This document shows, piece after piece, positions 31,294-50,132 of a stretch of 64,000 nt of DNA. The translations under genes and the position numbers were made by a program. Every line of letters starts with the position of its first letter. The stretch's first letter is position 1. Location: the NCBI GenBank assembly GCA_000004985.1, contig GG738845.1, one strand, 5' to 3'. The notes under the pieces are model-generated. The model searched no databases and was not told the DNA's origin. It saw only the letters and a list, made by a program, of their open reading frames with translations. Origin of the DNA: Naegleria gruberi (Eukaryota).

Positions 31294-34200
31294 TTATTCT
31301 GCTGGTTTGATGAGAATACCTTCAAAGAAAGAATTGGAAAGGATTTGCTTGGCACTTGGTCTCTTACTGGCATCCTTCTCCAGCAAAGATAAACAAATAT
31401 TAATCAATGTTGATGAATAATTTCCTGATTTTTCCATTTCCTTTGTTAATTTATCAATGGCTTCTTCCTCTCTATTCGAAATAAACATGTGACTGACAGC
31501 TGTGGTTGTGTCTTTGGTCATGATTTGATAGATAGCCACTCCCAATGAATAGATATCGGTGTTGAAACTGTACTTTCCTCCAGTTGCGAGTTCTAAAGAC
31601 ATGTATAAAGGAGTGCCAGCATAAGATCTGTCAACTGAACCCATACTTGCTTTGGCTAGACCAAAATCGGCTAATACAACATGAATATTATCGGAATCAA
31701 GGTCTCTAATAAAAATATTAGATGGTTTGACATCTCTGTGAATAACTTTCAGTTTTGTGTGAACAAAATTCAAAGCATCACAAATCTGATAAATAATCTG
31801 CTTTACCTTTCTTTCACTACACCATTCCGTATCGTTCATTAGCTTGAGTAAATCACCATTCGAATAGAAATCCATATCAATACACAATAATTGAGAATTA
31901 TCCACAAAAAAGTCATTAACTTTGATAATATTTTCATGATCAATGTTCATCAATTGAGAACCTTCTTTCATCATTCCATTCAATTCCTCAGCAGAAGAGT
32001 ATTTGATGATTTTAAGAGCTTTTGTTTTGTTTTGCTTGGTATCAAATGCTTTAAATACTGACCCAAAGGCACCTTCTCCAATTTTAACTAAATCCTTATA
32101 ACGAGAAAGTGGATTAAATGCATTTTGTGAGTCTGAACTCTTGATAGAGGAAAAACTCATGAGTGGTGTGAAATGTGCACTTTCTTGTGATGGGAAATCA
32201 CTATGAGAGGGTATTGTTACTTCCTCAATTAGTTCAGTTTCCTCTGGTTGTTCTTGTTGGTGTAGGGTTTGTTTCTTCTTTTGTAACACCACCACAACAG
32301 CAACCACTACAATGACCACAATAACAATTACCACCACAATAAATAAAGCGACTAGTATGCCAACAATTAGTCCAATAGTTGCTCCATCATCCACAGGAAT
32401 ATTCTTATTGCCTTGACTTGATTTTGGTGATGCAGTAACGGAAATTGTTGGAGTTATTACAACGTTATTATCAATAACTGAAAAGGTTGTAAAATGTTTG
32501 GTGGCACAAGTAATTTCATAGATATTTGCTGATTTTGACTTGATAATTGTTTGAATACCCAAGGTTGACCAAGTATTGGAGTTCGTATCATAGTAATTAC
32601 ATGATAGATTAGAAGATTTTGTTTCAATATTATCAAAAACAATGTCTACTGTTTGATTTAGATTTGCAACTGAGACTTGTGCCAAGTTATCTATTTTTTG
32701 GATTGAAAGACTTATTATTTTGCTTACAATATTCGAATCTGTCTTCTTAGTCGTTGATTTGAAAATAAAACATGATCTCTTGGAAGACAAATCCACTTGA
32801 GAAGCAAAATTTGATGGGAATTTCACAGTAACATCTGAAATTTGATTTTGTTTTGAGTTAAGTTCTTGAGAGGAGAACAGGAATTGTTTTCTTACTGTGG
32901 TTTCTCCATCAGTTGACTCCACAACATTTTGAGTTATTGAACCTGGGCCTGATAAAAGAATTTCAGTCATTTGAAGAGATGTTTTGAATTGATCAAATAA
33001 TATCAAATTCTGTGATTGACCAATTTCAACTAATTCATTCAACTCACTCAAATGAACTAAATCTATCATATAAGGAAGCGTCTTCTCACTATAATAAGGT
33101 AAATTACTTGTAATACTATTGACTGACCATGAGATCCATTCTTTCAACTCATCTAATTTATCTATTTTCTTATCAGAAAGGTATAAAAGTTTGTAAGTTT
33201 TGTGGAGTGGAGGAATGATGAGTGAAATTAGTTTATCATCCACATTGTAACCAACAGATCTAATGTCAGATAGAACTGATAAAATATCAATCAAGGTTGC
33301 TCTAACACTTGAAAGTGATGTCAGTTGGGATGATTGGGATTCCAAATAGGTCAACAAGAAATTCAATTCTTGTAACATTTCAAGACCTGAAGTTCTATTT
33401 CCTTTCATATAAGAATATTCGTCTTTGAAGTAATTCAACGGATCAGATGTTGGATTGGAAACACTTGTTAAATTTCTCATGAATTCTCCAACGTTTCCAT
33501 TTCTGCTTAAAACTTTCACCTTAATGGAAGAATTTGGAAGAATGGTAGAGAATTTCATGGCTACTTTCTTTTTCAATGTATTTGAAATGATGAATTTACG
33601 TTTCAAATCCATATTAAATTCCATAAGAATCATTAATCGATTCTCAATCATGTGATCACAAGAAATTGTTAAATAACTATTGGAAAGTAAATTAATATCA
33701 CAAGAAACTCTTGGTGAGCGTTCAGAGGTAAACGAGTAAGAGTTTGAAGCAACTACATCAACTCCATTCAGAGCTTGAATCTCGAAAATATAATTCTCCT
33801 CTTGATAGAACAAATCACCACTCATCCAGATGGAAGTTCTCAAATAATTATCACTTTGAGCTAAAATATTTGATTTAAGAGAATCACTCGATTGTAATCT
33901 TCCTTGACTAACCTTCCAGTTATAGTTTGAAAAGTTTCCAGTTATTTCTGCCTCTATGTAACATCCAGAATAGCTCAATGAATTCCAAGCTTTTGTAATC
34001 TTCACAGTGATTGGTTTTGATTTGGTTATTTCGAAGCGACCAACAACTGATCCACTTCCCAAATTATCATCTGAAGTACTAGCTTGAATTTGATAAACTC
34101 CAGGAGTAAGAGAACCTGCAGACAATTTAGCAATATTGGAATTTACACTGAATACCGATTGAGGAATTGTTGTTAATTTTGTGTCATTTTCAACCCTGAA

Positions 34201-37200
34201 AAGACTCCAATAGAAAGAAAGTTTTGAAAGTCTGAAGGAGGATTCGTTTTCAGCTGTAACCTCAATGGTGAAACTGTCATTTTGCGAATTCTTTGTGTCA
34301 ACCCCAACGAATGACAATTTAAGATCCACGCTTGTGAATGGTTTGTACTGGAGAGTGACAGTGATATCTCTGGAAGTGGTGGAGTCTTTGGCAGAACACA
34401 ACAAAGAAGCTTCACTCTCTTCCAAATTGGCATCTGAAAAGACTCTTATCATATGCTTATTCTTGAGAACATTGGTAAAGACATTTCCATATAAAGAAAT
34501 AGATTGGGATGGAGCAAAAGTTTCAATTTCTAGAATACATTCAAATCCAGAACATGAAATTATTCTAGTATCCAAAATATCATTGAAAAATTCAATGTTT
34601 GGACCTGTGGAGGTGATTTTCAAATCTAGTTTTGAACTTGATTTTGAATTGTTCATCCAGTTGTTGGTATTTAAAACTAAACTAATAGATGATGTCGATG
34701 ACAAATAGGTTTTTGGTATGATCAAAATATCTCTATTCAATCCAATAAATTCTCCAGTTGACCCACAAGTTGGACATGTCCATTTATAGTCAATTGATTT
34801 GGCAAACCTGTAATTGGAATCAATACTTGGTCTAACAATCAGATCAGAAGAAGAGGGAATAGTGGAATATAGTTTGGTTACCTTGATACTTGTGGAAGCG
34901 TAAGTTTTCGAATTGGATTTTGCTTCTTCCATACTAACATAAACTGAAATATTCGAATTTTTCAACTTGAGAATATCTCCAGTTTCTAAAATAAAGTTAT
35001 AACCTAAATAGATTGTTAAATTAGTGTTCCACACACAGATAGGTTGTTCGCCCAATTTCAATAGAGAAGTAGAATCAAATAAACTTTCACATTTTCCATT
35101 AAACATCTCAAAGGATTCATCCCTTGCAATAATGGTTTGAACTAGTGGCGCTAGAGTAATGGATTGATAATTCATACTGAAAACGTAATTTTCACATTCC
35201 TTTCCAATATATCCATTCTTACAAGTACATGTATGTGGACCTGAACAATTACCATTTCCAGAACAAACACCTGGATCAATTTCAACCTTTTGATAACACT
35301 TGAAATATTCGCATTTAGAACCAGCATATCCATTTGAACATTGGCAGACGTCCTTATCTACACATTGACCTTTCAAATTTGAACAAACACTTGCATTATT
35401 ACTATCGATTCCATAACAAGAAGTCAAGTTACAATTATTCCCAAACCATCCAGACTGACATCTACAATCATTAATGCCTACACATGTTCCCTTTCCATTA
35501 CAAACAGCAGTCTTATCAGAGGTTATTCCATAGCAATATGGATAATCACATCTCAAACCTCCGTATCCATCAGTACAGATACAATTTCCAGGACCATTAC
35601 AAGTACCATTATTGGAACATGCCTTTTTTCCATAACAATCGAATAATTCACATTGATTTCCATAGTAACCTTCAATACACGTGCAGTTATTGGGAATTCC
35701 ACAAACTCCATTACCACTACAGACACTTCTATTATTACTCATTATACCATAACAATATGTGATATTGCAATTACTTCCAGTCCAGGAATTTGCTGTACAA
35801 ACACAAGAGTTTGGAAGATCACAATATCCTTTTCCTGCACATACACCAGTTGAGTTTGCTTTAACTCCAAAACAAATTGGGATACATTCAGTTCTTTCTT
35901 GATTGAAATCATATCCATCCTCACAATAGGGCGTCAGTGATCTTATTGAATTATCTACTATATAATAAATCTTATTAGTTTCAAAGTCAGCTGTCAATTT
36001 TACAATTGAAGTACTAGCAATGGAATATCGTTCACCATTCTTTGGATATCTCCAAATATTATTTTCAGTGCTTGATATATAAACTATTGTATCACCGTTT
36101 GGCATAATTGCTAAATCCTTTGTCGAAGACTCTGTTTTATAGACAGTCTCAACATAATTATCACTTCTGAGAGTTCTTATGAGATTGTTGCCATTGTCTA
36201 TATAGTAAATTTGATCAGTCCCATTTGCAAAGGCAGCACCAACACAATAAAACATGTATGTTTCATTAAGCGGTTGTACTATTGGTAGATCTGGACCTTT
36301 TACAGTATATTGAGTACCAATTAATGAACTGGCTCTTCCTTTGTAAATTGTTTCTACAGTAGAATAGGCCCAAAAACTATGGATAAGCCTGTCATCAGAT
36401 GAAACTTTCAAATACTCAAGGGTATAATCAATATGTGTATGACGAGATGGTACATCTTCACCATATCCTATAAGTGTTCTTCTTCTTCCATCTGTGAGAT
36501 TGTGAAATGAAATTCCTTCGTTTTCCATAACAAGCAAATTACCATCTGGTAATAGAGCCAGATCCATTGGATAAATCATCTTTGCTTCTGTTGAGAGTAA
36601 GCCAGGAATTGGCTTCTTTCCATACAAATCAGAGTTTCCAGCAACAATGGTTATCTGATTATTCTCAAATTTCTTAACGAATCCATTAAAGTTATTTTCA
36701 GTTATATAAATAGCATCATTAATGACGATTGCCTTATTAGGGCAAGATAAACCACTTATTGGCAAAGTTGTGGTTGCACCTCCAATCACAGTTTGTTGAA
36801 TAGAATTTGCTTGACAATTTGCAACATAAATGGTATCATTGGCATGCACATATAAACCAGCTTTTGATGAAATTCCGCTCAAAACCGTTACCAAAGTGTT
36901 CGAAACTAGGTGCCTTAACCTTCCACCTTCAATAAACACGATACTTCCATTCGAAAGTACTCCAATAGCTGATGGCTCATTGATAGAACTCAAAGCTGGG
37001 ACAAATTCACCACTATATTCATTTTGACCATTACCAGCGATTGTGATTATTGTGCCATTAGTCAAAATTTTTCTAATTCTGTAATTCATACTGTCTGCTA
37101 TATAAATTTCATTATTTGAGGATAATGCAATTCCTTTCGAATAAATTGATGCCTCAGTAGCCAAAATACCATCTCCATTATTTCCTGAAACATAGTTTCC

Positions 37201-38781
37201 TGCAATTGTGTAATATCTTTGTTCACTCCAAACAAACTTTCGAATAACTTGGTTCATGGTATCAGAAACTAAGAAATCACCATTAGGATAAAGTGCAAAC
37301 GAAGGCGTTGAATAAATGGCATCACCAGCAACAATTTCTAAAGTTCCATTCTTGTGAACTTTGTAAATGTATCTACTATAGTGAAAATATAAGAGATCTC
37401 CATAAGCAGCAATTCGTTTAGGATAATCGAAGGAATATGTGCCGAATTTACAATCTGAAAGTTTAGATCCTTCTGAAACAATCTTACTTGAGTAAGGAGA
37501 GGATAATAAGTAAACATTTCCATCGGTTGCTATCTTTCTAATAGATTTTGAATCAGAGAAAAAAAGTTCTCTTGTTTTTGGATTATACACAACATCGAGT
37601 GGTGAATCTAAATTGGCTTTGCTAGGTTTCACACCATCTCCATAATAGGATGTACTTCCATCAGGAGCACCAACAACTTTAGAATAATTACCTTTCGAAA
37701 GTGAAACTTTTACAATTGCATTATTGGACGAATCTGCAATGTATAGCTCATCATTTTGGTTGATTGTTGCATAGTATGGATTTTTCAAGGAAAGAGAGCT
37801 ATTTTCATTGCCTGCAATTGTTGTGATAATACTAGTGTTCGAAATCAGACGAATCTTATTATTCCCCGCATCACAAATAACTAATTCATTCTTATAATTC
37901 ATGAAAACACACATTGGTGCAGTGAGTAAGGCATTAATCGCCAAACCTCCATCACCAATAAATCCAGAAGTCCCATTTCCTGCCATAGTAACGACACTTC
38001 CGTTTTGAAAAATCTTTCGAATACAATTATTTCCACTATCTGCAACATAGAGCTCACTTTCGTCTAAACTAAATGAAAGCCCTGAAGGTCTATTGAATAG
38101 AGCACTCAATCTTGTTTGATTATTGTCAAAACCACTCACACCATCTACACCAGCATAGTTATCAATAATTCCAGTGCTTGAATTAATTACTCTGATGACA
38201 TGCCTGTCAAAGTCGGTAAAGAAAATGTCACCTCTTTTGTTCATAATAATATCTAGTGGAGCAGAAAGGGTGGAATTAGTGGCAATTTGACCATTTCCAT
38301 AACCTCCTACCTGTCCATTACCTGCAATATTAATAACTTGTTTAGTTTCGAATATATATTTCTTAATCGTGTGAGTACCCAATTCTGTAAAGTAAATATC
38401 CATATTCTTATCCAGTAAAATTCTTGTAGGATTGACAATAGAAGGATTATCAAGTGAAGTAATAATACCATCGTTATCAATTATTCTAATCTTGGTATTA
38501 GAAGAATCTGCTATTGCCATGAAGAAAGGTTTCCTATTCTTGCCGCTGTCCCACATGGCAAATCCAGTTGGGAAATTCAACACAGACTTCTCAGCAGGTA
38601 CATTATCACCCAACAAATTTGTACCTACAACAAGTTCATTTCTATAAAGTATTCTAGCGGAAAGTGTTGTGTGTACAAGAATTGAAATTAGAACCAACAA
38701 AACTACCAGCACCGTTCGAAACATTTTTTGAATGAGTTGAAATGTACCACACCACCAATGTTTTTTTTTGTCTGTTGGCAA
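31294..38781 (-). CDS. Giant receptor-like Ser/Thr protein kinase: signal peptide, NHL-repeat beta-propeller region, tenascin-type EGF/Cys-rich repeats, Ser/Thr-rich stalk, one TM helix, C-terminal kinase domain
   Basis: Uninterrupted 2495-aa ORF with the likely ATG at 38724 (MFRTVLVVLLVLISILV). NHL-type repeats include YVADSGNNCIRKI, YIADSSNNAIVKV and YIADSMNYRIRKI. The EGF-like module CYGI(M/T/D)S...C(S/N)G.G.C.....C.C..G(Y/W).G..C recurs about 7 times. The TM segment is IGLIVGILVALFIVVVIVIVVIVVVAVVVVL. The kinase domain runs from subdomain I (IGEGAFGSVFKA) through VAIK-like ALKII, HRDVKPSN and DFGLAK to APE-like GTPLYMSLE. Confidence 0.8.
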   Translation of the reverse strand: MPTDKKKHWWCGTFQLIQKMFRTVLVVLLVLISILVHTTLSARILYRNELVVGTNLLGDNVPAEKSVLNFPTGFAMWDSGKNRKPFFMAIADSSNTKIRIIDNDGIITSLDNPSIVNPTRILLDKNMDIYFTELGTHTIKKYIFETKQVINIAGNGQVGGYGNGQIATNSTLSAPLDIIMNKRGDIFFTDFDRHVIRVINSSTGIIDNYAGVDGVSGFDNNQTRLSALFNRPSGLSFSLDESELYVADSGNNCIRKIFQNGSVVTMAGNGTSGFIGDGGLAINALLTAPMCVFMNYKNELVICDAGNNKIRLISNTSIITTIAGNENSSLSLKNPYYATINQNDELYIADSSNNAIVKVSLSKGNYSKVVGAPDGSTSYYGDGVKPSKANLDSPLDVVYNPKTRELFFSDSKSIRKIATDGNVYLLSSPYSSKIVSEGSKLSDCKFGTYSFDYPKRIAAYGDLLYFHYSRYIYKVHKNGTLEIVAGDAIYSTPSFALYPNGDFLVSDTMNQVIRKFVWSEQRYYTIAGNYVSGNNGDGILATEASIYSKGIALSSNNEIYIADSMNYRIRKILTNGTIITIAGNGQNEYSGEFVPALSSINEPSAIGVLSNGSIVFIEGGRLRHLVSNTLVTVLSGISSKAGLYVHANDTIYVANCQANSIQQTVIGGATTTLPISGLSCPNKAIVINDAIYITENNFNGFVKKFENNQITIVAGNSDLYGKKPIPGLLSTEAKMIYPMDLALLPDGNLLVMENEGISFHNLTDGRRRTLIGYGEDVPSRHTHIDYTLEYLKVSSDDRLIHSFWAYSTVETIYKGRASSLIGTQYTVKGPDLPIVQPLNETYMFYCVGAAFANGTDQIYYIDNGNNLIRTLRSDNYVETVYKTESSTKDLAIMPNGDTIVYISSTENNIWRYPKNGERYSIASTSIVKLTADFETNKIYYIVDNSIRSLTPYCEDGYDFNQERTECIPICFGVKANSTGVCAGKGYCDLPNSCVCTANSWTGSNCNITYCYGIMSNNRSVCSGNGVCGIPNNCTCIEGYYGNQCELFDCYGKKACSNNGTCNGPGNCICTDGYGGLRCDYPYCYGITSDKTAVCNGKGTCVGINDCRCQSGWFGNNCNLTSCYGIDSNNASVCSNLKGQCVDKDVCQCSNGYAGSKCEYFKCYQKVEIDPGVCSGNGNCSGPHTCTCKNGYIGKECENYVFSMNYQSITLAPLVQTIIARDESFEMFNGKCESLFDSTSLLKLGEQPICVWNTNLTIYLGYNFILETGDILKLKNSNISVYVSMEEAKSNSKTYASTSIKVTKLYSTIPSSSDLIVRPSIDSNYRFAKSIDYKWTCPTCGSTGEFIGLNRDILIIPKTYLSSTSSISLVLNTNNWMNNSKSSSKLDLKITSTGPNIEFFNDILDTRIISCSGFECILEIETFAPSQSISLYGNVFTNVLKNKHMIRVFSDANLEESEASLLCSAKDSTTSRDITVTLQYKPFTSVDLKLSFVGVDTKNSQNDSFTIEVTAENESSFRLSKLSFYWSLFRVENDTKLTTIPQSVFSVNSNIAKLSAGSLTPGVYQIQASTSDDNLGSGSVVGRFEITKSKPITVKITKAWNSLSYSGCYIEAEITGNFSNYNWKVSQGRLQSSDSLKSNILAQSDNYLRTSIWMSGDLFYQEENYIFEIQALNGVDVVASNSYSFTSERSPRVSCDINLLSNSYLTISCDHMIENRLMILMEFNMDLKRKFIISNTLKKKVAMKFSTILPNSSIKVKVLSRNGNVGEFMRNLTSVSNPTSDPLNYFKDEYSYMKGNRTSGLEMLQELNFLLTYLESQSSQLTSLSSVRATLIDILSVLSDIRSVGYNVDDKLISLIIPPLHKTYKLLYLSDKKIDKLDELKEWISWSVNSITSNLPYYSEKTLPYMIDLVHLSELNELVEIGQSQNLILFDQFKTSLQMTEILLSGPGSITQNVVESTDGETTVRKQFLFSSQELNSKQNQISDVTVKFPSNFASQVDLSSKRSCFIFKSTTKKTDSNIVSKIISLSIQKIDNLAQVSVANLNQTVDIVFDNIETKSSNLSCNYYDTNSNTWSTLGIQTIIKSKSANIYEITCATKHFTTFSVIDNNVVITPTISVTASPKSSQGNKNIPVDDGATIGLIVGILVALFIVVVIVIVVIVVVAVVVVLQKKKQTLHQQEQPEETELIEEVTIPSHSDFPSQESAHFTPLMSFSSIKSSDSQNAFNPLSRYKDLVKIGEGAFGSVFKAFDTKQNKTKALKIIKYSSAEELNGMMKEGSQLMNIDHENIIKVNDFFVDNSQLLCIDMDFYSNGDLLKLMNDTEWCSERKVKQIIYQICDALNFVHTKLKVIHRDVKPSNIFIRDLDSDNIHVVLADFGLAKASMGSVDRSYAGTPLYMSLELATGGKYSFNTDIYSLGVAIYQIMTKDTTTAVSHMFISNREEEAIDKLTKEMEKSGNYSSTLINICLSLLEKDASKRPSAKQILSNSFFEGILIKPAE

Positions 38782-39730
38782 GACGGCCGTCTTCTTAGTT
38801 TGTCCTGATCTACCATTAGTTGATACTGAAAGCTCAACATGTCATGTGAGAAAACTTAATTGGAATTACAAAAAGGCATTTTAAACATAAATATAATTTG
38901 ATATGAGAGTTGACAGCAACACTGTTACAGATCTCTTCTTGCCAAGTCCAATATTAAATATTCTACATGAAATATTTATTGCTTACCTTTAGATGATTAC
39001 CATAGGATAATTGTGGTTAGATAGGTAATTTTATATCTCATCTTCCACCAATAGAAGATGGTACAGGGTATCAAGTAATACAGGTGAGGTACCAAGTATA
39101 TACCAAGTATTTAGTTGGATTGAAAAAGAATCCTCCATAGGAACCTATTGTCGATAAACTTGGTATAATAAACTTTACAATAACAGTTGCGCACCAGACT
39201 AGTCTTCATGATTACAATATGTTTGATTGAAATTTACACAAAAGCAATACAGTATCTGTTATTCTTATTGCTTTTGTTGAAAGCAAAGTAATTGTGTAAG
39301 AGTTAATAATCTTGACAGGAACTGCACCCACACAAAACAATCTTTGATAGCAGGTTGTAGTTTCTTCATCAACAACTGCTGTGCATCACGAAAACAACTG
39401 GGCTATTAGGCAGACTGTGAGGATAACAAATCCATTTACTGTGTTTATGGTAAAACCATTACCGTTCCTTATTTCATTTTAAAATTTGGTGTCCATCAAA
39501 GCAGATTCCAGTAGGCTCAGTATCATTCTACAGCTGAGAAAATAACTTTCAAAAACAGTAACATTCCTTCCTTTTCAAATATCCAAATACTGTAAACAGA
39601 TAAAAATGGACCATAGGTAAAGACCAGTAGCTTTCGCCCTTTCACAACCAAGTAACCAAGCAACATGTTCCACATATCTGTCGATGCACAGACGCACGGC
39701 TTATCTGTGAAAAACCAAACAAGAAAAAAG

Positions 39731-40843
39731 ATGCAATCTTCTACTTTAGCTATTCTTTTGCTTTTCTGTTTGGTTGGTTGTGTTACTTGCGCCAGTAATA
39801 CGACTGTAAGAGCTTACATCCTCGATATTCAATCAGAATATGAAAAGATAGACACTCTTGGGCAACGTCTCACAAAGGCGATTGATATGTTAAATTTTGC
39901 AAACATCAACTCGACCTTAATTCCTCAAATTGTTCAAACAAGAGCAGCTCAATTGAAAAAATTAACAACTGCTAGAAGCATGCTCGCTCTTGAAATGTCT
40001 GTATTGAGCAATCAATGTAATATGTTTGGAGGAGATGACTGCACCGTTCCTACATGTTCATATCATGGAAAATATATAAGTAATAATCAAACAGCTAAAT
40101 GTGTATGTGATCAAGATTGGACTGGGTTAAACTGTTCTGTTCCAATATGTTATTCCATTCCTGCAACAAACAGCTCTGTGTGCTCAGGCTCTGGTACATG
40201 CATCTCCAATAATACATGTCTCTATCCAACTCCATCAAACAACCTTGTTGTTGACACCATTAGAATGTATGCGAATGGAACTGTTGCAAGAAGTTGTAAA
40301 GAATATCTCTCAACATTTAATGAGAGTGGACTCTATTGGATCAAACCAGATAATAACTATCCAAGTTTTGTAGTTCATTGTGAGCAGAAATTCAATGGTG
40401 GAGGTTGGATTTTAATTTCATCAAGAAACAAATCAATTCCTCCAAAATATTCTGATGTTGTAAAGCCACTCAATGATGGTTCGTCAATGGCAGATGATAA
40501 ATGGGCCATTTTCAGAAATGCCAATCCTGACTTAATGTGGAAAGATTCAGATCGTGATGAGTATAGTGTAACAAATATTTTGGGATGGAAAAATGGAGCA
40601 AATTGTAAAGTATTAACAACAAAACTAACTGATCTGTTGCTTGCTCATAAGGAGAACACTGGCTGTACAATGTCAGGAAGTGATTATTGCTTGCTTGGTG
40701 ATACTAGATTCGGTATGACTCCTTGTGCATCATGTGAGGCAACATACACAGCACCAACTTTGATTTGGAAAGAGTGGAAGTTCAAAAGCTATTTTTGGAA
40801 TGATTCTCCTGAACTATCAAAAGCAGATATTTATTTAAGATAA
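39731..40843 (+). CDS. Secreted protein with tenascin-type EGF-like repeats and a C-terminal fibrinogen-related domain (FReD)
   Basis: The ORF runs from 39665 and the probable ATG is at 39731 (MQSSTLAILLLFCLVGCVTCA, a signal peptide). EGF-like modules are CSYHGKY...CVCDQDWTGLNC and CSGSGTCISNNTC. The FReD core SCKEYLSTFNESGLYWIKPDNNYPSFVVHCEQKFNGGGWILISSR matches the fibrinogen C-domain pattern (compare vertebrate SCKEI...SG.Y.I.PDG...F.VYCDM...GGGWTV). Confidence 0.6.
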   Translation: MQSSTLAILLLFCLVGCVTCASNTTVRAYILDIQSEYEKIDTLGQRLTKAIDMLNFANINSTLIPQIVQTRAAQLKKLTTARSMLALEMSVLSNQCNMFGGDDCTVPTCSYHGKYISNNQTAKCVCDQDWTGLNCSVPICYSIPATNSSVCSGSGTCISNNTCLYPTPSNNLVVDTIRMYANGTVARSCKEYLSTFNESGLYWIKPDNNYPSFVVHCEQKFNGGGWILISSRNKSIPPKYSDVVKPLNDGSSMADDKWAIFRNANPDLMWKDSDRDEYSVTNILGWKNGANCKVLTTKLTDLLLAHKENTGCTMSGSDYCLLGDTRFGMTPCASCEATYTAPTLIWKEWKFKSYFWNDSPELSKADIYLR

Positions 40844-41937: not shown

Positions 41938-42663
41938 ATGAAACAATTTAATCAAGTCACCATTCAACTTGTCATTGCAACAATAATTATTAGCTTTGTA
42001 ATTACTTGTTCATCATCCTATTCAACTCCACGTACCAAACCCTATGAAAACACACTTCCTTTTCAATTATTGAAAATACAAGAATTATCATCTAGTCAAC
42101 CATCCACTTTACAACGTAACATTAACATTCAATCCAAAGATTTAACCTATCCAATATGGCCACTACAATTCAATGCTACACTACTAAAAATCACACCATT
42201 CAACACAGATATTCAATGGACCAAACTATACTATGATTATAAGAATCAATTAGGTCGATTTGATTTCTTTGATTCCTATTATAGTATGAATAATGAATGG
42301 GGAAGTACAAACTTTACTATTTTATGGTGGAATTCAACTGTTTGGTATATCTATCCAAAATCTAATGAATGTTGGATTAGATCCAAAACTTTACCTTTAA
42401 TTTCACCTCATTGGTTACAAATGACTCATTATATTGGAAGAAGTTTATTCAGGGGATTATATTCTGATTGTTGGGAATTTCCAAATGTTGATGAATTGGA
42501 TGGAATGAAATATTATCATCGTGTTGCAGATAAAATGGAAGATAGAATTCCATTACGTTCCACTAATCAAGCTAATGATCCAGGTGCAACTGATTATGTT
42601 GATTTTGTTATTGGTCAATCTGATTTATCTTTATATACTGTTCCAAAATATTGTCCAAAATAA
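41938..42663 (+). CDS. Hypothetical secreted Trp/Tyr-rich protein
   Basis: 241-aa ORF. The N-terminal signal peptide is VIATIIISFVITCSS, and there are N-glycosylation sequons. Confidence 0.45.
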   Translation: MKQFNQVTIQLVIATIIISFVITCSSSYSTPRTKPYENTLPFQLLKIQELSSSQPSTLQRNINIQSKDLTYPIWPLQFNATLLKITPFNTDIQWTKLYYDYKNQLGRFDFFDSYYSMNNEWGSTNFTILWWNSTVWYIYPKSNECWIRSKTLPLISPHWLQMTHYIGRSLFRGLYSDCWEFPNVDELDGMKYYHRVADKMEDRIPLRSTNQANDPGATDYVDFVIGQSDLSLYTVPKYCPK

Positions 42664-42686: not shown

Positions 42687-45600
42687 TTAAACATCTTCCC
42701 ATTCGCCCATTATTTCATCATCTTCAAATTCATCTGCAATTTCAAGACCACTTGTTGTATTTCCTAAAAAGAATACAATTTGAAATGCATACTTGTTAAA
42801 GTATTTTCCACTTTGTTCTATTATTGTTGGTTTGTAAAATGATGGATTCAGCAAATCACAAAATTCCTCTGAATCAAAATAAAGCGACGTTCCACTTTTA
42901 CGTTCTTGATAATTCTTCAATTCAATTCTATTATACTTTCTAATTTGAATACTTTCTCTATCAAATGATTCATTTGCAATTAAATATTTAATTTTAAAAA
43001 TGTCAGTGGATTTAAACACTTCTAATAGATCAATAGAAAATAATCCACTTTTTCTTGATATAGGTGTCAGGTAGATATTAATATTATTTCCAAATACGTT
43101 AAAGAGATTGGAGGAGAAATTGTAATCCTCCAATACTTCAAGTGGAGTGAGAATAGAAATATTATGATGACTCATTGGTATATTCTTGGATAATTGTCTA
43201 TCAATCCATGGATGTACTCCATAGAGTGGTGATGCTGAACTCATTGAGAGAGTATTATTTAAAGATGGTGATTTCTCCAATAACTTCATACATACAACAA
43301 TCTTGTAGTCATAAGCATCATTTTTGAATTCTGTGGAGAGAATGGAAAAATGATTTTGTGAAATATTATCCAAGGCATGCTGAAATTTGTGGGAGTGTAC
43401 AGAGTAATGATTTGAATAGTAATAAGGGAAAAAAGCAACATCAACTCTCAAATATTCCAATACTGAGGAAGAATCATCTTCATGTTGTGTCGATTGTAAA
43501 TATAATGAACATGTTGCCAATGTATTATCTTCTCCACTATGAATAGTCATAAACCAATTAAATCCAAATGCTTTGAAAGTTTCAGAATGAACCTTTTTGT
43601 ACATTTCCCATTTGATTGGTTTTGAAATTTCAATACATGTTGTGAATGTATTCTCTCCTTTCCAACAATCAGGTATTGGAGTATATTGTGGAATGACATT
43701 ATTTATACCAGTACCACCCTCGCCAGTGTATAGAAAATTATTGTTATATGCCTTAGCAACCATCAACCCAAAAGGTCTACTCAAAGTAGAGAACCTTGTA
43801 TTACTTGTAAACTGAGAGATACTGTCATGTGAAAATGATTGATGTAGATTAATCTTATTTTCTAGACATTTCTTCATAAATTTATCAACATATTTTTTAA
43901 CACCAGATAAATCTAATAAATCCTCAGCAATTCTTGCAAAATGCTTAGCAATAATGTGTGGAACATTAAAATCCAATAAAATACTCAATGCTAAAAAGGT
44001 ATCCACTGTTGAATTCAATGCAATGAATACTGGAAGTGCCTTAGATAGAGAATAGATTAATGCTTCTCTATCAAATGCGAAATTACCATTCTCAATCTTG
44101 TTGGCGAAATATTTTAACAATTTTGTAAAGGACGATCCGTTCATATAGTCAAAGCTAAATACTGATTGTAAAGTATAGCATAATATAGTGAATCTATATT
44201 CATCTTTGATGGGTAAATCCAACAAGCGACTCATATATAAATTCAATTCCACTAATTTTCTCTCCTTCAATAGATTTGGAATAAGAGTTGCATTCAATTC
44301 TTCAAAGAGATGATTGGCACTCTCTACTTTGATACTCTGTAAATTTTCAGTAATAGTTTTGAGAGCACGTTCCATATTGAATTTTCTTTCCTTAATCTTG
44401 GTACAGAAAAAGTGAAAATCTCTTTCATGTTCCAACAATGAGATTTCATTGATATCCCTGAATTGAGGACAATCCACTAAAAGTAATAATGTTAATTGTT
44501 TCATGGATTTAAATGTAGAGAGTAATTGATTGGTGAGTTGAGAACAACCGTTAAAATAGATGGATTCAATAGGAGAATCATTAGTACATAATTCATTCAC
44601 AATTTCATCTTGAATGGATGATTGTTTCAATTTTAAAACTCTTAATTGAGTTAATGATTGAATATTCTTAACAAATCCCATTTCAGATCCTGAAGGATTT
44701 TCAAAAGATGAAATTGACAAGGTATATATTCTAAGTGGAAGTATCAAATGATTTGGAAATGGAACTGACATGTCTAAAATATTCAGTGTCTCTAGAGTTG
44801 TAAACTCTAATAGACTGATGGCATGATCATATACCATTGATAAATTTCTAAGTTTCTTCTTATTGGTTAGTTTCTTTACAATTTCAGATGTGATCAAATT
44901 ACCAGTGATTGATTCAAGATGAGGTAAAGGAACAATCACCTTTTCTAAATTGTGATTTTCTATCGATGCATCCAAGTGAAGTGATTTAACATTTTGACAT
45001 TTGGAAAGGAATTCAAAATTCATTTGATTTTCAAATCCAGTCACTGAAAGTTCTTTGAGGGACCTTCCAACAAGTACTGGAAGTAAAATGCCTGCTCCTT
45101 CCACTAAATCACAGGATACACTTTCTAAACGATTAAAACTTGAGGTGTCGGAAAGTTTCTTAATTAAATCTTTTGAAAATGAAACTCTTGTCATGAATAA
45201 TAGCTTTAGTTTGTTTAAATTTGGTAAAGAACAAATTGCCTCTAATAATGAATTATTATTTTTGGTAGATTCTATTCCAACAATAAATAAACTCAAATCT
45301 GTCAAATGTTCAACAATTTTTCCAAAAGCATTATTTGGAACAGTTATATCTGCTCTAACAAATAAAGAAAGTGATTTCAACTTGAGAGGTTCCTTAAAAG
45401 TAGTGAAAATTGAATTAGTTAACTGAACATCAGGTATCTCTGGATACATGAAATGGAACGAAGAAAGTTTAGGTAAATTTTTCATTAAAAATTGTGCATT
45501 CTTTTCTGAAACACCTCTCAAACGTAATTCCATTAAATTTGGGCATTGGTTTGGAATGTTTTTTAAAACTGCTGTTGGTAATATGTAATCAACTACTAAC

Positions 45601-46169
45601 TTCTCCAATTTTGAAGGAAATGTTACCTTGATATCCACTGAAATACCATTTCCTATTAAAGTTAATTGTTTCAAATTGGAAAATGATGAAAGTGAAAGGT
45701 TTTCAATATGAAAATCAAAACCACACATCAACAACTCTTCAAGACTATTCACCATTTGAAGCTTTTCATCAATGGCATCTTGTAAAAAGAATCCAGAAAA
45801 GGCATCACACGCCAACAAATCAAGCTTTCTAATTTTACAATTTAAAGATCGGAGAATTTTAAAGAATGATAAATCATCAATTTCTTCTCTAGCCTGAATT
45901 TCATCATTATCAATACTTTCTCTACTATTAATTTCTTGTAAATTTACTAATTTTGATAGATAATACTTGTTAATATTTTCCAATTGACCAGCTTTAACTC
46001 GGTAGGGAAGAATATACGAAGTTTTGTGGGTAATCCAATAATTCCAAATTAATTTGTTAAAATTATGATTGGTAGACTTGAGAGCGATTAAATGATGTTG
46101 TGGAATGAAGGGAAGGAGATGATCAAACAAGACTTCATTGGGAATATCCGAGAGGTGAATGTTGATCAT
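42687..46169 (-). CDS. F-box / leucine-rich-repeat protein (large)
   Basis: 1160-aa ORF. The N-terminus is F-box-like (IPNEVLFDHLLPFIPQHHLIALKSTNHNFNKLIWNYW). About 400 aa of LRR-like L-x-x-L-x-L segments follow (LKSLSLFVRADITVPNN, LKLLFMTRVSFSKDLIKKL, and others). Confidence 0.55.
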   Translation of the reverse strand: MINIHLSDIPNEVLFDHLLPFIPQHHLIALKSTNHNFNKLIWNYWITHKTSYILPYRVKAGQLENINKYYLSKLVNLQEINSRESIDNDEIQAREEIDDLSFFKILRSLNCKIRKLDLLACDAFSGFFLQDAIDEKLQMVNSLEELLMCGFDFHIENLSLSSFSNLKQLTLIGNGISVDIKVTFPSKLEKLVVDYILPTAVLKNIPNQCPNLMELRLRGVSEKNAQFLMKNLPKLSSFHFMYPEIPDVQLTNSIFTTFKEPLKLKSLSLFVRADITVPNNAFGKIVEHLTDLSLFIVGIESTKNNNSLLEAICSLPNLNKLKLLFMTRVSFSKDLIKKLSDTSSFNRLESVSCDLVEGAGILLPVLVGRSLKELSVTGFENQMNFEFLSKCQNVKSLHLDASIENHNLEKVIVPLPHLESITGNLITSEIVKKLTNKKKLRNLSMVYDHAISLLEFTTLETLNILDMSVPFPNHLILPLRIYTLSISSFENPSGSEMGFVKNIQSLTQLRVLKLKQSSIQDEIVNELCTNDSPIESIYFNGCSQLTNQLLSTFKSMKQLTLLLLVDCPQFRDINEISLLEHERDFHFFCTKIKERKFNMERALKTITENLQSIKVESANHLFEELNATLIPNLLKERKLVELNLYMSRLLDLPIKDEYRFTILCYTLQSVFSFDYMNGSSFTKLLKYFANKIENGNFAFDREALIYSLSKALPVFIALNSTVDTFLALSILLDFNVPHIIAKHFARIAEDLLDLSGVKKYVDKFMKKCLENKINLHQSFSHDSISQFTSNTRFSTLSRPFGLMVAKAYNNNFLYTGEGGTGINNVIPQYTPIPDCWKGENTFTTCIEISKPIKWEMYKKVHSETFKAFGFNWFMTIHSGEDNTLATCSLYLQSTQHEDDSSSVLEYLRVDVAFFPYYYSNHYSVHSHKFQHALDNISQNHFSILSTEFKNDAYDYKIVVCMKLLEKSPSLNNTLSMSSASPLYGVHPWIDRQLSKNIPMSHHNISILTPLEVLEDYNFSSNLFNVFGNNINIYLTPISRKSGLFSIDLLEVFKSTDIFKIKYLIANESFDRESIQIRKYNRIELKNYQERKSGTSLYFDSEEFCDLLNPSFYKPTIIEQSGKYFNKYAFQIVFFLGNTTSGLEIADEFEDDEIMGEWEDV

Positions 46170-46816: not shown

Positions 46817-47791
46817 ATGAAATGGGCTGAGACATTACAATTTTCAAAAAAAATGTTAAACGACTCAGTTTCGGTTGTCTTGGACGAAACTATTGAAAGC
46901 AAATTACTGCAAGGAAAATCCATCCACAAATTTATCCCATTCAAGTCATTCGAGAAGATCAAAAGTTATTCATTGGCAGAGATGAATACTCCAGAAACAA
47001 TTGTGATTTACAATGGAAAGATCATTATTGGTGATACTTACAATAACAATTTGGTGACGATTGACATGATTGAAGGTGAAAAGAAAGTTATTGAATTTAA
47101 CGATTCTCCATTCCACCCTTTCCAGATTTATATCGAGAATGGATATAAAAAGGATGGAAAGCAAAGTTATGGATCTGCATTGATATTCTATTGTTTCACT
47201 CAAGGTGTTCAAAAACATGACATGAGGGATGTGTTAAATGAGTGGAATTCATCAAAAGCTATTTGGAAGTTGAATGTGTCATTTGGTTGCATGATCATTG
47301 ATAAAACGAGGGGTGCAATTCATGTGTTTCCAAAGTATGAGTTCTTGTCTGCCTATGTTCCAGTTGTATTTCCTGAAAATACATCCTTTGATCTGGAAAC
47401 TGGAGTAAAATTGAGTGATAACTTCAAGATCAATAGAGAAACATTCACATTTCCAGTATTTGGACCAGATAACTCTGTATTGATTCATGACGGAAATACT
47501 ATTGAGAAATTAATATTGAAAGATGGAGAGTATTCTGATAAGGATATTGGTTTCAGATCTTTGAAGAAAGAAGGAGTGTATAGATTGTATTATGATAACG
47601 AGTTGACTGGACTGTTATTTGTGATTGGAAAGGATTATATTTCTGTATTGGATACTAATCTCATTGAAAAGTATTCTTACCCAATTGATTTTGTTTGCAC
47701 ACAAATAGCTGTCAATAAGGAAACAAGTGAACTATTTGTTTTGAGTGCCAATAACAAGATTTTACATGTTTACAAAATACATACTGATTAA
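46817..47791 (+). CDS. Hypothetical protein
   Basis: 324-aa ORF with a Met start and globular, non-repetitive composition. Confidence 0.45.
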   Translation: MKWAETLQFSKKMLNDSVSVVLDETIESKLLQGKSIHKFIPFKSFEKIKSYSLAEMNTPETIVIYNGKIIIGDTYNNNLVTIDMIEGEKKVIEFNDSPFHPFQIYIENGYKKDGKQSYGSALIFYCFTQGVQKHDMRDVLNEWNSSKAIWKLNVSFGCMIIDKTRGAIHVFPKYEFLSAYVPVVFPENTSFDLETGVKLSDNFKINRETFTFPVFGPDNSVLIHDGNTIEKLILKDGEYSDKDIGFRSLKKEGVYRLYYDNELTGLLFVIGKDYISVLDTNLIEKYSYPIDFVCTQIAVNKETSELFVLSANNKILHVYKIHTD

Positions 47792-48850: not shown

Positions 48851-50132
48851 TTGATTACCAATAAAATTACAACAAAGGTAATTGTGAATAAATAGCTCCA
48901 AATGGTAGCTGCTTGTGATGTTCTTGAAATATCAACATTAATTGATTTGGTATCTGAAAGTGTTTGATAAGTTGCCTTAAGAGAGGCTGAAGATGCAGCT
49001 GTTGCTGACAACTGAACTGAGAAGGAAGCAACACCTTCACTTGCCACTTTAGATTTATCACCAGTTATTGTAATACCAGATGATCCTACCATTTCCAAAG
49101 TGATAGTTCCTGAACCTGATTTGAGAGTATTTCCACTCGAATCCAACATTGAGACAGTTGCAGTGAATGCTGCACCACTATTCACAGAGGATGGAAGTGA
49201 GAGTTTGATACTGGAAGGTTGGGTTGGGTGACTGTGGTGGAGGTTTCACATTTACTACCAGTGTATCCTGAGAAGCATGTACACAAATCTTGACCACTAC
49301 ATGTTCCTTTACTGACAGTAGTACTGGAAGGTGCAATGCCATAACAAGTGAATTGAGATTGAGTGGCAGTCACTGTAAACTCAGCAGATGTCAATGAAGG
49401 AGCAGACATAAATTGGGTATTGATAGAAGCGAATAATTTAACAGTACCAGAGCTTGGTGCAGTGATTTCTGGACCTTTCATAATACCATTAGAAGCCATG
49501 GAAGAGTGTAAAGAACCAGGGTAGGTTAGATCAATTAAATAATTTCTTGGAACAACATTTCCATCACTATCGACAATTCTAACTTCAGGTGTGAATTTGG
49601 ATCCAGCCACAACAAGTGAAGGAGCAATAATAAGCAATTTTGAAGCAGATTTGGAACAAGCGCAATAATTTTGTACATCAACTGAACAGGAGGTAATGCT
49701 ATTCTTACATGAGAGTTTGGTAGTGTAATCAGTGGTATCAAGAATTAAGGAATTAGAGGCACTGAAACATTCTCCAACATTGTACCTGGTTTGTTCTTTA
49801 GAAAATTCAGCCACCTTGACAGAGGTATCAGTGGATGTTGTTTCAATAATGTAGGTGTGGTAGTCACCTTTTGGTGAAACCAAGAGATCCATTGCACTGA
49901 CATAATAACCAGTTGGACATTTGGTAGGACATTTAACTTCAATTGAGAAGAGGAAGGATAAGGTTACACTTCCTCCACATCTAGGACAGGAACATGTGGC
50001 TTGGGATGCTCTCTTTTGAAATAAATTGACTGGTTGGGGAATGTTGGAAGTATCACTTGTGGCAACAGTCAACTCGTAAGCAAAAGTGAAGAGGAATAGA
50101 CAAATGAGTAAAATTATATTAGAAACTTTCAT
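48847..50132 (-). CDS. Secreted Cys/Ser/Thr-rich protein with C-terminal hydrophobic tail (GPI-anchor-like); one frame discontinuity at 49182-49185
   Basis: ORF 49182-50132 has a signal peptide (MKVSNIILLICLFLFTFAYE) and is Cys-rich, with an EGF-like CSGQDLCTCFSGYTGSKC module. ORF 48847-49185 in the +1 frame continues with Ser/Thr-rich sequence ending IWSYLFTITFVVILLVIN. No intron fits the junction. Confidence 0.5.

What the first reader, a model, noticed from the sequence alone, without database searches (positions are those of the whole stretch)
39731..40843. Fibrinogen-related domain protein with tenascin-type EGF repeats in a non-metazoan-looking genome
The C-terminal 200 aa carry the FReD core pattern SCKEY...SGLYWIKPD...F.V.CEQ...GGGWILISSR after two EGF-like modules and a signal peptide. 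This is the ficolin/tenascin/angiopoietin-like layout. FReDs are overwhelmingly metazoan, with scattered bacterial examples. An amoebozoan instance would be of evolutionary interest, either as lateral acquisition or as an ancient domain.
Basis: partly seen in the sequence, partly recalled or inferred. Interest (0 to 1): 0.5.

Follow-up and report, generated by a model that had tools for sequence, protein, structure and literature searches.

The report
Short bacterial-type fibrinogen-like protein in Naegleria
A real gene of the amoeboflagellate Naegleria gruberi encodes a secreted protein whose globular head is a short, divergent fibrinogen-like domain; its named relatives outside Naegleria are all bacterial, and it sits on a helical stalk and EGF-like spacer, so the ficolin/tenascin look is probably convergent.

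Summary
The ORF at 39731-40843 (+) is real. It is identical to a 370-aa 'predicted protein' of Naegleria gruberi, which is a heterolobosean (Discoba), not an amoebozoan.

The quoted motif (aa 188-232) is a significant match: PF00147 scores 24.9 bits (cut-off 22) and NF040941 scores 39 bits (cut-off 30). The match covers only the first ~50 residues of a fibrinogen-related domain (FReD), the A subdomain or 'NEC' unit.

An exhaustive search shows that aa ~176-370 are one conserved ~190-aa C-terminal domain family with its own signature: C..YCDM..GGGW, then C292, H306-x-E308, C312, D318-Y319, ending in YVR/YLR. Every named member outside Naegleria is bacterial.

The four N. gruberi paralogues plus one unidentified eukaryote form a clade in 72% of NJ bootstraps. 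Codon usage is native and the flanking genes are eukaryotic.

Best reading: a secreted, probably oligomeric, lectin-like binding protein. It combines a bacterial-type short FReD, probably acquired laterally, with Naegleria's own helical and EGF-like modules. The function is inferred, not shown.

The parts
39731..40843 (+). Complete single-exon gene (370 codons plus stop). Product is the N. gruberi 'predicted protein' P0001.
   Evidence: ORF list and sequence. 100% identity over 370 aa to the N. gruberi protein. GC3 of 0.264 matches the neighbouring genes at 0.24-0.29.
39731..39793 (+). Probable signal peptide, aa 1-21 (MQSSTLAILLLFCLVGCVTCA|SN).
   Evidence: Highest hydropathy window in the protein is at aa 3-22. 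It is a low-confidence helix 3-13 in the full-length model. The cleavage site is inferred by reading the sequence; no predictor was run.
39794..40024 (+). Alpha-helical stalk, aa 22-98, with a heptad pattern (candidate coiled coil). Cys96 lies at its C-terminal end.
   Evidence: AF2 predicts helices 22-56 and 63-98 at pLDDT ~80. One heptad register has 71% hydrophobic a/d positions against 42% overall; paralogue P0003 gives 72%. P0003, P0157 and P0007 also have a Cys at the end of the helical segment (sequences).
40016..40222 (+). Cys-rich EGF-like spacer, aa 96-164. It holds one degenerate 5-Cys EGF-like module (C104-C135) and one truncated module (C140-C163).
   Evidence: Pfam EGF_TEN E 7.3e-6 and EGF_Teneurin 23.1 bits, both below their cut-offs. 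tblastn against the EGF repeats of the neighbouring receptor kinase gives E 3e-9 at 39-51% identity. Strict tenascin spacing is not met. Short beta hairpins with pLDDT 56-66.
40256..40840 (+). C-terminal ~195-aa short FReD-like globular domain, aa 176-370. It ends at the protein's C-terminus with IYLR.
40289..40429 (+). A subdomain / NEC unit, aa 187-233 (RSCKEY...YWIKPD...FVVHCEQKFNGGGWILISSRN). The C189-C217 pair corresponds to the disulfide bridge that stabilises the NEC unit.
   Evidence: PF00147 profile positions 3-50. NF040941 over its full length. PDB phmmer and profile hits are confined to this stretch. NEC concept from PMC2211786.
40604..40687 (+). Family-specific conserved block, aa 292-319: C292...L299...H306-x-E308-x-x-G311-C312...G316-x-D318-Y319. 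This is the candidate ligand- or metal-binding site with a probable second disulfide.
   Evidence: These positions are 85-100% conserved across 84 non-redundant family members and invariant in A1 and A3. The role is inferred only.

Best explanation
The gene encodes a secreted, N-glycosylated protein of Naegleria gruberi built from four parts: a signal peptide, a ~75-aa heptad-patterned helical stalk, a short EGF-like Cys-rich spacer, and a ~195-aa C-terminal head.

The head belongs to the fibrinogen-related superfamily, but to a short and so far uncharacterised branch. Outside Naegleria, every named member of that branch is bacterial. The branch keeps the A subdomain (NEC unit, C...YCDM..GGGW) and a FReD-like beta core that ends in a YVR/YLR strand. 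In place of the canonical Ca2+/ligand-binding P subdomain it has its own invariant block: C292, H306-x-E308, C312, G316-x-D318-Y319.

The most likely working model is as follows. The stalk, possibly with Cys96, brings several chains together. The clustered heads then bind a repeated surface ligand multivalently. That ligand is most plausibly a glycan on bacterial prey, on the substratum or on the amoeba's own coat, and binding would go through the conserved H/E/D/Y block. This is the same operating principle as ficolins, tachylectin-5, intelectins and angiopoietins.

The likely history is that the head entered a heterolobosean ancestor once, probably from bacteria. It then duplicated, giving at least four N. 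gruberi paralogues, and was joined to native helical and EGF-like modules.

Shown here: gene integrity, family membership, predicted fold, distribution among named sequences, and native codon usage.
Inferred: secretion, oligomerisation, ligand class, binding site and direction of transfer.
For: Gene and organism.

Sequence homology to the A subdomain: PF00147 at 24.9 bits (above cut-off 22), NF040941 at 39 bits (above 30), and family profile against PDB FReDs and intelectins at E ~1e-13.

A coherent ~190-aa C-terminal family: 275 hits at E<=1e-3 among 1.84e9 representatives. Of the top 150, 62 have one long match, and nearly all of those end at the protein's own C-terminus. The invariant residues are listed.

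Bacterial affinity: all named non-Naegleria full-length members are bacterial, as are the other named high scorers to the family profile. The genomic contexts examined are bacterial.

Eukaryotic clade: it is recovered in 144 of 200 NJ bootstraps.

Native gene, not contamination: the flanking genes are eukaryotic, GC3 equals that of the neighbours, and the EGF part matches the neighbouring Naegleria gene.

Stalk and secretion: helices 22-56 and 63-98, heptad register at 71% against 42% overall, and 10 N-glycosylation sequons against 5.0 +/- 1.9 in shuffles (1.4% of 2,000 shuffles reach 10).

Binding-head analogy: weak fold hits to cyanophage proteins annotated as FReD- or collagen-NC1-domain-containing, and to one tail-fibre-like protein. 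A nearby gene in Pseudoalteromonas viridis combines discoidin (F5/8 type C) with weak FReD/COLFI hits.
Against: - No experimental datum exists for any member of this family, so ligand, oligomeric state and localisation are all inferred.
- The canonical FReD ligand and Ca2+ site is absent, so a lectin function cannot be carried over from ficolins by homology.
- The monomer model cannot tell a coiled coil from a helical hairpin. The heptad test is crude.
- The tree is unrooted NJ with 72% support. Most family members come from metagenomes without taxonomy, so neither the direction of transfer nor the restriction to bacteria is proven.
- Other Naegleria species and other Heterolobosea could not be surveyed.
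Confidence: 0.6

Rival explanations
1. It is a canonical metazoan-type FReD lectin (ficolin, tenascin or angiopoietin homologue). It would either have been inherited from an ancient eukaryotic FReD or been acquired from an animal. It would bind acetylated sugars through the usual Ca2+-dependent P-subdomain pocket.
For: PF00147 passes its gathering score. The best solved-structure matches are vertebrate fibrinogen, angiopoietin, ficolin and FGL1. The domain order resembles tenascin and angiopoietin.
Against: - Pfam and PDB alignments stop at profile position ~50.
- hhalign against canonical FReDs is confident only over the first ~60-80 residues.
- No WW, NCA or NLNG motifs are present, and the one D-x-D-x-D string (aa 272) falls in a segment that varies across the family alignment.
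- The head is ~25 aa shorter than PF00147's 221 positions.
- Metazoan proteins cover only 15-27% of the query, whereas bacterial proteins cover 60-96%.
- Tenascin EGF spacing is not met, and Pfam reported no fn3 or collagen family for the protein.
Confidence: 0.08
2. The head is a vertically inherited, ancient (pre-LECA or LECA) minimal FReD that was retained in Heterolobosea and lost almost everywhere else. On this view it was not a lateral acquisition from bacteria.
For: Codon usage is fully native. There are several diverged paralogues at 29-45% identity. At least one further eukaryote carries a homologue (P0007; its contig has a MAPK-like neighbour and 34% GC). NEC units occur in apicomplexans (PMC2211786).
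Against: Only one moderately supported eukaryotic clade was found among >80 non-redundant full-length members. All other named members are bacteria from several phyla. No full-length member from animals, fungi, plants or Amoebozoa surfaced among the 150 listed hits of an exhaustive search of 1.84e9 representatives; the library carries no names, so this rests on the members whose source could be traced.
Confidence: 0.2
3. The head is not a binding module. It would be a catalytic or metal-dependent domain, for example a hydrolase, that uses the invariant H306/E308/D318 triad. The FReD resemblance would then be only a scaffold.
For: The invariant His-x-Glu ... Asp-Tyr block flanked by a conserved Cys pair looks like a metal or active site. 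It has no counterpart in canonical FReDs.
Against: No enzyme family matched in Pfam, NCBIfam or PDB. As far as I know, every characterised member of the fold is a binding protein (own knowledge). The bacterial architectures place the domain at the end of adhesin- or lectin-like proteins such as discoidin, ricin-B, Big and cadherin-like.
Confidence: 0.1
4. The match is a chance Cys/Gly pattern, or the locus is bacterial contamination or a pseudogene.
For: The Pfam score is only ~3 bits above threshold and covers 22% of the model.
Against: Family-profile E-values are ~1e-13 against PDB. Paralogues and bacterial homologues score 1e-20 to 1e-48. All invariant family residues are intact. The gene lies between ordinary eukaryotic genes on a 1.56-Mb contig and has the same GC3 as they do.
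Confidence: 0.01

Closest known systems
Bacterial 'fibrinogen-like YCDxxxxGGGW domain-containing proteins' (NCBIfam NF040941), e.g. Pseudoalteromonas luteoviolacea WP_063367195 and Gallaecimonas pentaromativorans WP_050660704
   Same: The whole ~190-aa C-terminal head is shared: the same two invariant Cys pairs, GGGW, the H-x-E..GC...G-x-D-Y block and the terminal YVR/YLR. The window protein passes the NF040941 cut-off.
   Different: The N-terminal parts differ. The bacterial proteins carry lipoprotein or other bacterial leaders, Cys-rich repeats and CarboxypepD_reg, ricin-B or discoidin partners. Naegleria uses a helical stalk plus an EGF-like spacer. The NCBIfam model describes only the 46-aa motif. 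I found no model in Pfam or NCBIfam, and no paper, that describes the full domain, and no member has a known function.
Canonical metazoan fibrinogen-related domains (Pfam PF00147: fibrinogen beta/gamma, ficolins, tenascins, angiopoietins, FGL1, tachylectin-5A)
   Different: The head has ~195 aa against 221 Pfam profile positions. The segment that follows GGGWT in canonical FReDs (DGSVDFYRxW..Y..GFG, seen in the examples) has no counterpart. There is no P-subdomain Ca2+ loop, NCA...GGWWY...C disulfide or NLNG motif. A different conserved block takes their place.
Intelectins / X-type lectins (human ITLN1 4wmq, Xenopus XEEL 4wmo)
   Different: The solved intelectin and XEEL chains are about 280-300 residues long. 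Their three-Ca2+ architecture and exocyclic-diol binding site (own knowledge) have no detectable sequence counterpart here, because no alignment extends beyond the NEC unit.
NEC domain (neurexin/collagen domain) of apicomplexan CCp/LCCL proteins and fibrillar collagen C-propeptides (COLFI, PF01410)
   Same: This is the same ~50-aa alpha-beta3, disulfide-bridged unit. It has been described as a mobile module outside animals (PMC2211786). 14 of 35 family members also hit COLFI through this unit. Giant bacterial adhesins carry 3-9 tandem copies.

Membership tests
Fibrinogen-related domain, canonical (Pfam PF00147 Fibrinogen_C) | Score above the Pfam gathering threshold | tested here: met
   24.9 bits against 22, E 2.2e-5. 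The aligned stretch is only aa 187-233, which is profile positions 3-50 of 221.
Fibrinogen-related domain, canonical (Pfam PF00147 Fibrinogen_C) | A subdomain: helix plus three strands, first disulfide, YCDM...GGGWT motif | tested here: met
   C189...C217-E-Q...G223GGW226 is present. PDB phmmer and profile matches fall in this stretch. The model shows H14-18, E25-29, E38-43 and E51-58.
Fibrinogen-related domain, canonical (Pfam PF00147 Fibrinogen_C) | B-subdomain beta core with the overall FReD fold | tested here: inconclusive
Fibrinogen-related domain, canonical (Pfam PF00147 Fibrinogen_C) | P subdomain: Ca2+-binding D-x-D-x-D loop, NCA...GGWWY...C disulfide, NLNG, ligand pocket | tested here: not met
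   No Pfam, PDB or hhalign alignment extends beyond ~aa 260. A regular-expression scan finds no WW, NCA or NLNG. The single D-x-D-x-D string at aa 272 lies in a segment that varies across the family alignment.
NCBIfam NF040941 (fibrinogen-like YCDxxxxGGGW domain) | Score above the curated cut-off over the full model | tested here: met
   39 bits against 30, for aa 188-229, model positions 1-46 of 46.
Short FReD-like C-terminal head, named members bacterial (family defined here by alignment A1) | All signature residues present (C189, C217, GGW, C292, H306, E308, C312, D318, Y319), terminal h-Y-h-R, and the domain ends at the protein's C-terminus | tested here: met
   All signature residues are present in the window protein. 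In nearly all long matches the residues left after the match are about equal in query and hit. E-values to members are 1e-13 to 1e-48.
Tenascin | Heptad assembly region, tenascin-type EGF spacing, FN3 repeats and a canonical FReD | tested here: not met
   A heptad-patterned helix is present. The EGF spacing rule from PMC11401434 is not matched. Pfam reported no fn3 family for the protein. The FReD is not canonical (see the rows above).
Ficolin | Collagen-like G-X-Y stalk followed by a canonical FReD | tested here: not met
   The sequence contains no G-X-Y repeat (direct reading). The stalk is alpha-helical.
Intelectin / X-type lectin | Intelectin-type head of ~280-300 aa with intelectin-specific Ca2+ and ligand residues | tested here: not met
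Fibrillar collagen C-propeptide (COLFI, PF01410) | Pfam match and COLFI fold | tested here: not met

The most novel reading that the evidence does not exclude
The family may represent a minimal FReD, possibly close to the ancestral form: A subdomain plus beta core with a different, H/E/D/Y-based binding site. If so, Naegleria independently built a ficolin-like, stalk-clustered pattern-recognition lectin around it to recognise bacterial prey. That would be a protist case of convergent 'innate-immune' architecture, and it would bear on whether the animal FReD arose from a bacterial-type short form.
Probability: 0.25. Interest if true: 0.6.

Novelty: new variant of a known kind. Interest (0 to 1): 0.4.

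Why it matters
FReDs are usually treated as an animal invention that underlies clotting, innate immune lectins and matrix proteins. This locus documents two things.

First, a protist from the Discoba carries at least four genes with a FReD-superfamily head.

Second, that head belongs to a short branch whose named members outside Naegleria are bacterial. The branch is conserved over the whole ~190 aa and has its own invariant putative binding block. Current models do not capture it: Pfam sees only 50 residues and NCBIfam models only 46.

Characterising one member would test whether the FReD scaffold supports a second, independent binding chemistry. It would also help to polarise the evolution of the superfamily.

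The practical caveat for genome scans is that a PF00147 hit limited to profile positions 1-50 identifies a NEC unit. The same unit is shared by COLFI, intelectins and bacterial adhesins, so such a hit does not by itself identify a fibrinogen-type lectin.

Tried and rejected
- The look-up of encoding contigs with the window protein found no record.
- The search for homologous proteins with the single protein returned only the protein itself. With the five-sequence eukaryotic alignment A4 it returned only P0007 and missed even the known N. gruberi paralogues. The word-indexed search is therefore insensitive here, and the question of orthologues in N. fowleri, N. lovaniensis or Willaertia stays open.
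No systematic bacterial taxonomy or context survey was done, only three spot checks.
- Foldseek against afdb50 was unavailable.
- Doolittle et al. 2012 (PMC3575912), the key review on FReD distribution, is not held.
- Literature searches for Naegleria+fibrinogen, GGGW, PF00147+bacteria, and Naegleria+HGT+lectin found nothing about this protein or family.
- hhalign in global mode against a small set of canonical FReDs gave no trustworthy alignment past the first ~80 residues. The correspondence of the H-x-E/D-Y block to the P subdomain could therefore not be established.
- Considered and rejected: chance motif, contamination, pseudogene, COLFI membership, tenascin or ficolin orthology. Reasons are given under the rival explanations and the membership tests.
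Full report
OBSERVATION

The window is Naegleria gruberi DNA. The 370-aa product of the ORF at 39731-40843 (+) is 100% identical over its full length to an N. gruberi 'predicted protein' on a 1.56-Mb contig. N. gruberi belongs to Heterolobosea within Discoba, not to Amoebozoa.

The surrounding ORFs are ordinary eukaryotic genes: RhoGEF, actin family, TBC/TLDc, mitochondrial carrier, ArfGAP, MFS, RGS and Prp31. The gene's GC3 is 0.264, the same as its neighbours at 0.24-0.29. It is therefore a resident gene and not a contaminant.

They are a statistically real match. PF00147 gives E 2.2e-5 and 24.9 bits against a gathering score of 22. NCBIfam NF040941, 'fibrinogen-like YCDxxxxGGGW domain', gives 39 bits against 30 over its whole length. 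phmmer against PDB finds fibrinogen gamma and angiopoietin-1 at E ~1e-3.

In every one of these comparisons the aligned stretch is only aa ~183-233. That corresponds to positions 3-50 of the 221-position Pfam model. The remaining 137 residues match nothing canonical.

WHAT THE ~50-AA MATCH MEANS

This unit is the FReD A subdomain. It has been described as an independent, mobile, disulfide-bridged alpha-beta3 module called the NEC domain. It is shared by fibrinogen-type domains, fibrillar collagen C-propeptides and neurexins, it is present in lectins such as ficolin and intelectin, and it occurs stand-alone in apicomplexan CCp proteins (PMC2211786). A PF00147 hit restricted to it does not by itself establish a fibrinogen-type globular domain.

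WHAT THE C-TERMINAL 200 AA REALLY ARE

I ran an exhaustive phmmer of aa 165-370 against 1.84e9 cluster representatives. It gave 275 hits at E<=1e-3. The hits fall into two classes.

- Class (ii) holds about 80 large proteins with 2-9 tandem copies of the NEC unit only. The three examined (P0002, P0004, P0008) carry further domains such as FG-GAP, Big_9, cadherin-like and fn3. The one contig examined (P0004) has 69% GC. These look like bacterial adhesin-type proteins.
- Class (i) holds about 60 of the top 150. Each matches the query in a single stretch from residue ~17 to ~160-200. In nearly all of them the number of residues left after the match is almost the same in the query and in the hit. 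The similarity therefore runs to the C-terminus of both proteins.

Aligning 35 class (i) proteins (A1), and later 84 non-redundant ones, defines a ~190-aa domain. In window-protein numbering its signature is C189, G200-x-Y202, C217, G223GGW226-x-L228, C292, L299, H306-x-E308, G311-C312, G316-x-D318-Y319, and a terminal hydrophobic-Y-hydrophobic-R strand (IYLR here).

A third Cys pair is optional. 18 of 84 members have C320, and all 18 have at least one further downstream Cys. 47 of the 66 members without C320 have none.

Pfam sees only the first 50 residues in 34 of 35 members, and sees COLFI in 14 of 35. No Pfam or NCBIfam model that I searched covers the whole domain.

FOLD

An AlphaFold2 model of aa 176-370 built with A1 is confident: mean pLDDT 83.8 and pTM 0.83, with low confidence only at model residues 160-180.

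The head is thus predicted to keep the FReD A+B architecture, but distantly.

Profile-profile alignment to canonical FReDs is confident only for the first ~60-80 residues. The canonical P-subdomain hallmarks (Ca2+ loop, NCA...GGWWY...C, NLNG) are absent. Canonical FReDs end ...MKIR(P/R), as in P0185, and this family ends ...YVR/YLR. I read this as the homologous last strand, but that is an inference.

REST OF THE PROTEIN

The N-terminus is the most hydrophobic segment and reads as a signal peptide.

The full-length model has two long helices, at aa 22-56 and 63-98, with pLDDT ~80. One heptad register places hydrophobic residues at 71% of a/d positions against 42% overall. Paralogue P0003 gives 72%.

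Cys96 sits at the end of the helical stretch, and three homologues also have a Cys there (sequences). The mature protein would have 17 Cys, an odd number. An interchain disulfide is therefore plausible, though inferred.

Ten N-x-S/T sequons are present against 5.0 +/- 1.9 in shuffles; 1.4% of 2,000 shuffles reach ten.

The Cys-rich segment at aa 96-164 is EGF-like but sub-threshold in Pfam. It fails the published tenascin spacing rule (PMC11401434; tested). It consists of one 5-Cys degenerate module and one truncated module. Its best match in the window is the six-repeat EGF block of the adjacent 2,495-aa NHL-EGF-TM-kinase gene (tblastn E 3e-9; repeats listed). The 'tenascin-like' layout therefore appears to be assembled from Naegleria's own module stock.

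DISTRIBUTION AND HISTORY

N. gruberi has at least four genes with this head: the window gene, XP_002672788 (361 aa, same architecture, 45% identity in the head), XP_002676610 (365 aa) and XP_002671279 (1,109 aa).

A fifth eukaryotic sequence, P0007, comes from an unidentified organism. Its contig has 34% GC and a MAPK-like, poly-Q-containing neighbour.

Every other full-length member that carries a name is bacterial: Pseudoalteromonas luteoviolacea, Gallaecimonas pentaromativorans and alphaproteobacterial MAGs. Other named proteins that score highly against the family profile are also bacterial: further Pseudoalteromonas species, Agarivorans, Aliagarivorans, Myxococcales, Polyangiaceae and 'Ca. 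Aureabacteria'. Two contexts that I inspected are typical bacterial neighbourhoods. Metazoan FReDs match only the NEC part, covering 15-27% of the query.

In an NJ tree of 86 heads the five eukaryotic sequences form a clade in 144 of 200 bootstraps. The window gene pairs with XP_002672788 in 136 of 200.

The simplest reading is one acquisition by a heterolobosean ancestor, probably from bacteria, followed by duplication and fusion to native modules. It was old enough for complete codon amelioration. Vertical descent with massive loss is not excluded. The tree is unrooted and only moderately supported, and most sequences lack taxonomy.

MECHANISM

The mechanism is inferred. The architecture is a secretory leader, an oligomerising helical stalk, a rigid Cys-rich spacer and a C-terminal globular head. 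This is the operating design of ficolins, tachylectin-5A, intelectins, angiopoietins and tenascins, which achieve high avidity by clustering weakly binding heads.

The family's invariant H306-x-E308...C312...D318-Y319 block, braced by the C292-C312 pair, is the obvious candidate for the binding site, possibly metal-assisted. It would replace the missing P subdomain.

Two further observations fit a surface-binding role. Weak fold similarity exists to cyanophage proteins annotated as FReD- or collagen-NC1-domain-containing and to one tail-fibre-like protein. A neighbouring Pseudoalteromonas viridis gene combines discoidin with weak FReD/COLFI hits, and some family members carry ricin-B hits.

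For a bacterivorous amoeba, prey or substratum recognition is the most plausible use. A catalytic role for the H/E/D block is a minority alternative.

COMPARISON AND NOVELTY

The protein works like an oligomeric FReD lectin but is not a canonical FReD, tenascin, ficolin, angiopoietin, intelectin or COLFI. The membership tests give the details. It is a member of the family that NCBI labels through the 46-aa YCDxxxxGGGW model.

The protein is already in databases with a precomputed PF00147 tag. I found no publication on it or on the family.

I rate it a new variant of a known kind, of moderate interest (0.4). It is relevant to the origin of the animal FReD and is an example of convergent lectin architecture in a protist. 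There is no experimental anchor, and the evidence for direction of transfer is only moderate.

Noticed in passing
window 31294-38781 (-): A single 2,495-aa ORF immediately upstream of the finding. It encodes a signal-like N-terminus, NHL/teneurin-NHL repeats, six complete EGF-like repeats (aa ~970-1200), a transmembrane stretch and a C-terminal protein kinase domain (Pkinase 178 bits). This is a teneurin-like ectodomain on a receptor kinase. Its EGF repeats are the closest in-window relatives of the finding's EGF-like spacer.
   Followed up: partly
window 39665-39730 (+): An in-frame ATG 22 codons upstream of the annotated start would add MFHISVDAQTHGLSVKNQTRKK in front of the signal peptide. 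The database protein starts at 39731, and that start places the hydrophobic leader at the N-terminus.
   Followed up: partly
window 50951-52120 (+): A 389-aa ORF with a weak but above-threshold match to terpene synthase family 2, C-terminal metal-binding domain (PF19086, 28.2 bits against a cut-off of 23.7).
   Followed up: no
window 41938-42663 (+), 42687-46169 (-), 46817-47791 (+), 49182-50132 (-): Four sizeable ORFs (241, 1,160, 324 and 316 aa) close to the finding have no Pfam match at the thresholds used. The 241-aa ORF starts with a signal-like hydrophobic segment.
   Followed up: no
window 6870-9359 (-): An 829-aa ORF that combines a bacterial pre-peptidase C-terminal (PPC) domain hit with UPF0669 (C6orf120-like). 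This is an unusual pairing for a eukaryotic protein.
   Followed up: no
not in window: P0002 (4,172 aa), P0004 (1,564 aa; locus L005 8001-12695, 69% GC), P0006, P0008: Giant proteins, probably bacterial, with 3-9 tandem stand-alone NEC (FReD A-subdomain) units. P0002 and P0008 combine them with FG-GAP, Big_9, cadherin-like, fn3 and Dicty_CTDC repeats. Each unit is ~35-40% identical to the Naegleria unit. These proteins account for more than half of the top hits.
   Followed up: partly
not in window: BFVD hits E3SJT6, R9TQT3, Q58LR8, H8ZN14 (cyanophages S-ShM2, S-CAM8, P-SSM4, metaG-MbCM1): The head model has weak fold similarity (Foldseek E 2e-3 to 0.25, TMq 0.28-0.51) to cyanophage proteins. 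Two are annotated as fibrinogen-C or collagen-NC1 domain-containing, one as tail-fibre-like, and one is uncharacterised. No giant-virus protein scored better than E 2.
   Followed up: no
locus L004 1341-3287 (Pseudoalteromonas viridis CP072426): About 2.7 kb upstream of one bacterial family member lies a 648-aa protein that combines F5/8 type C (discoidin) with weak or faint H-lectin, FReD and COLFI hits. A second discoidin protein lies about 3.8 kb downstream. This may be a cluster of secreted glycan-binding proteins.
   Followed up: no
tool behaviour: The word-indexed homologue search returned only the query itself or only P0007. It missed N. gruberi paralogues of 34-45% identity that the exhaustive representative search found easily. 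Negative results from that tool should not be read as absence.
   Followed up: yes
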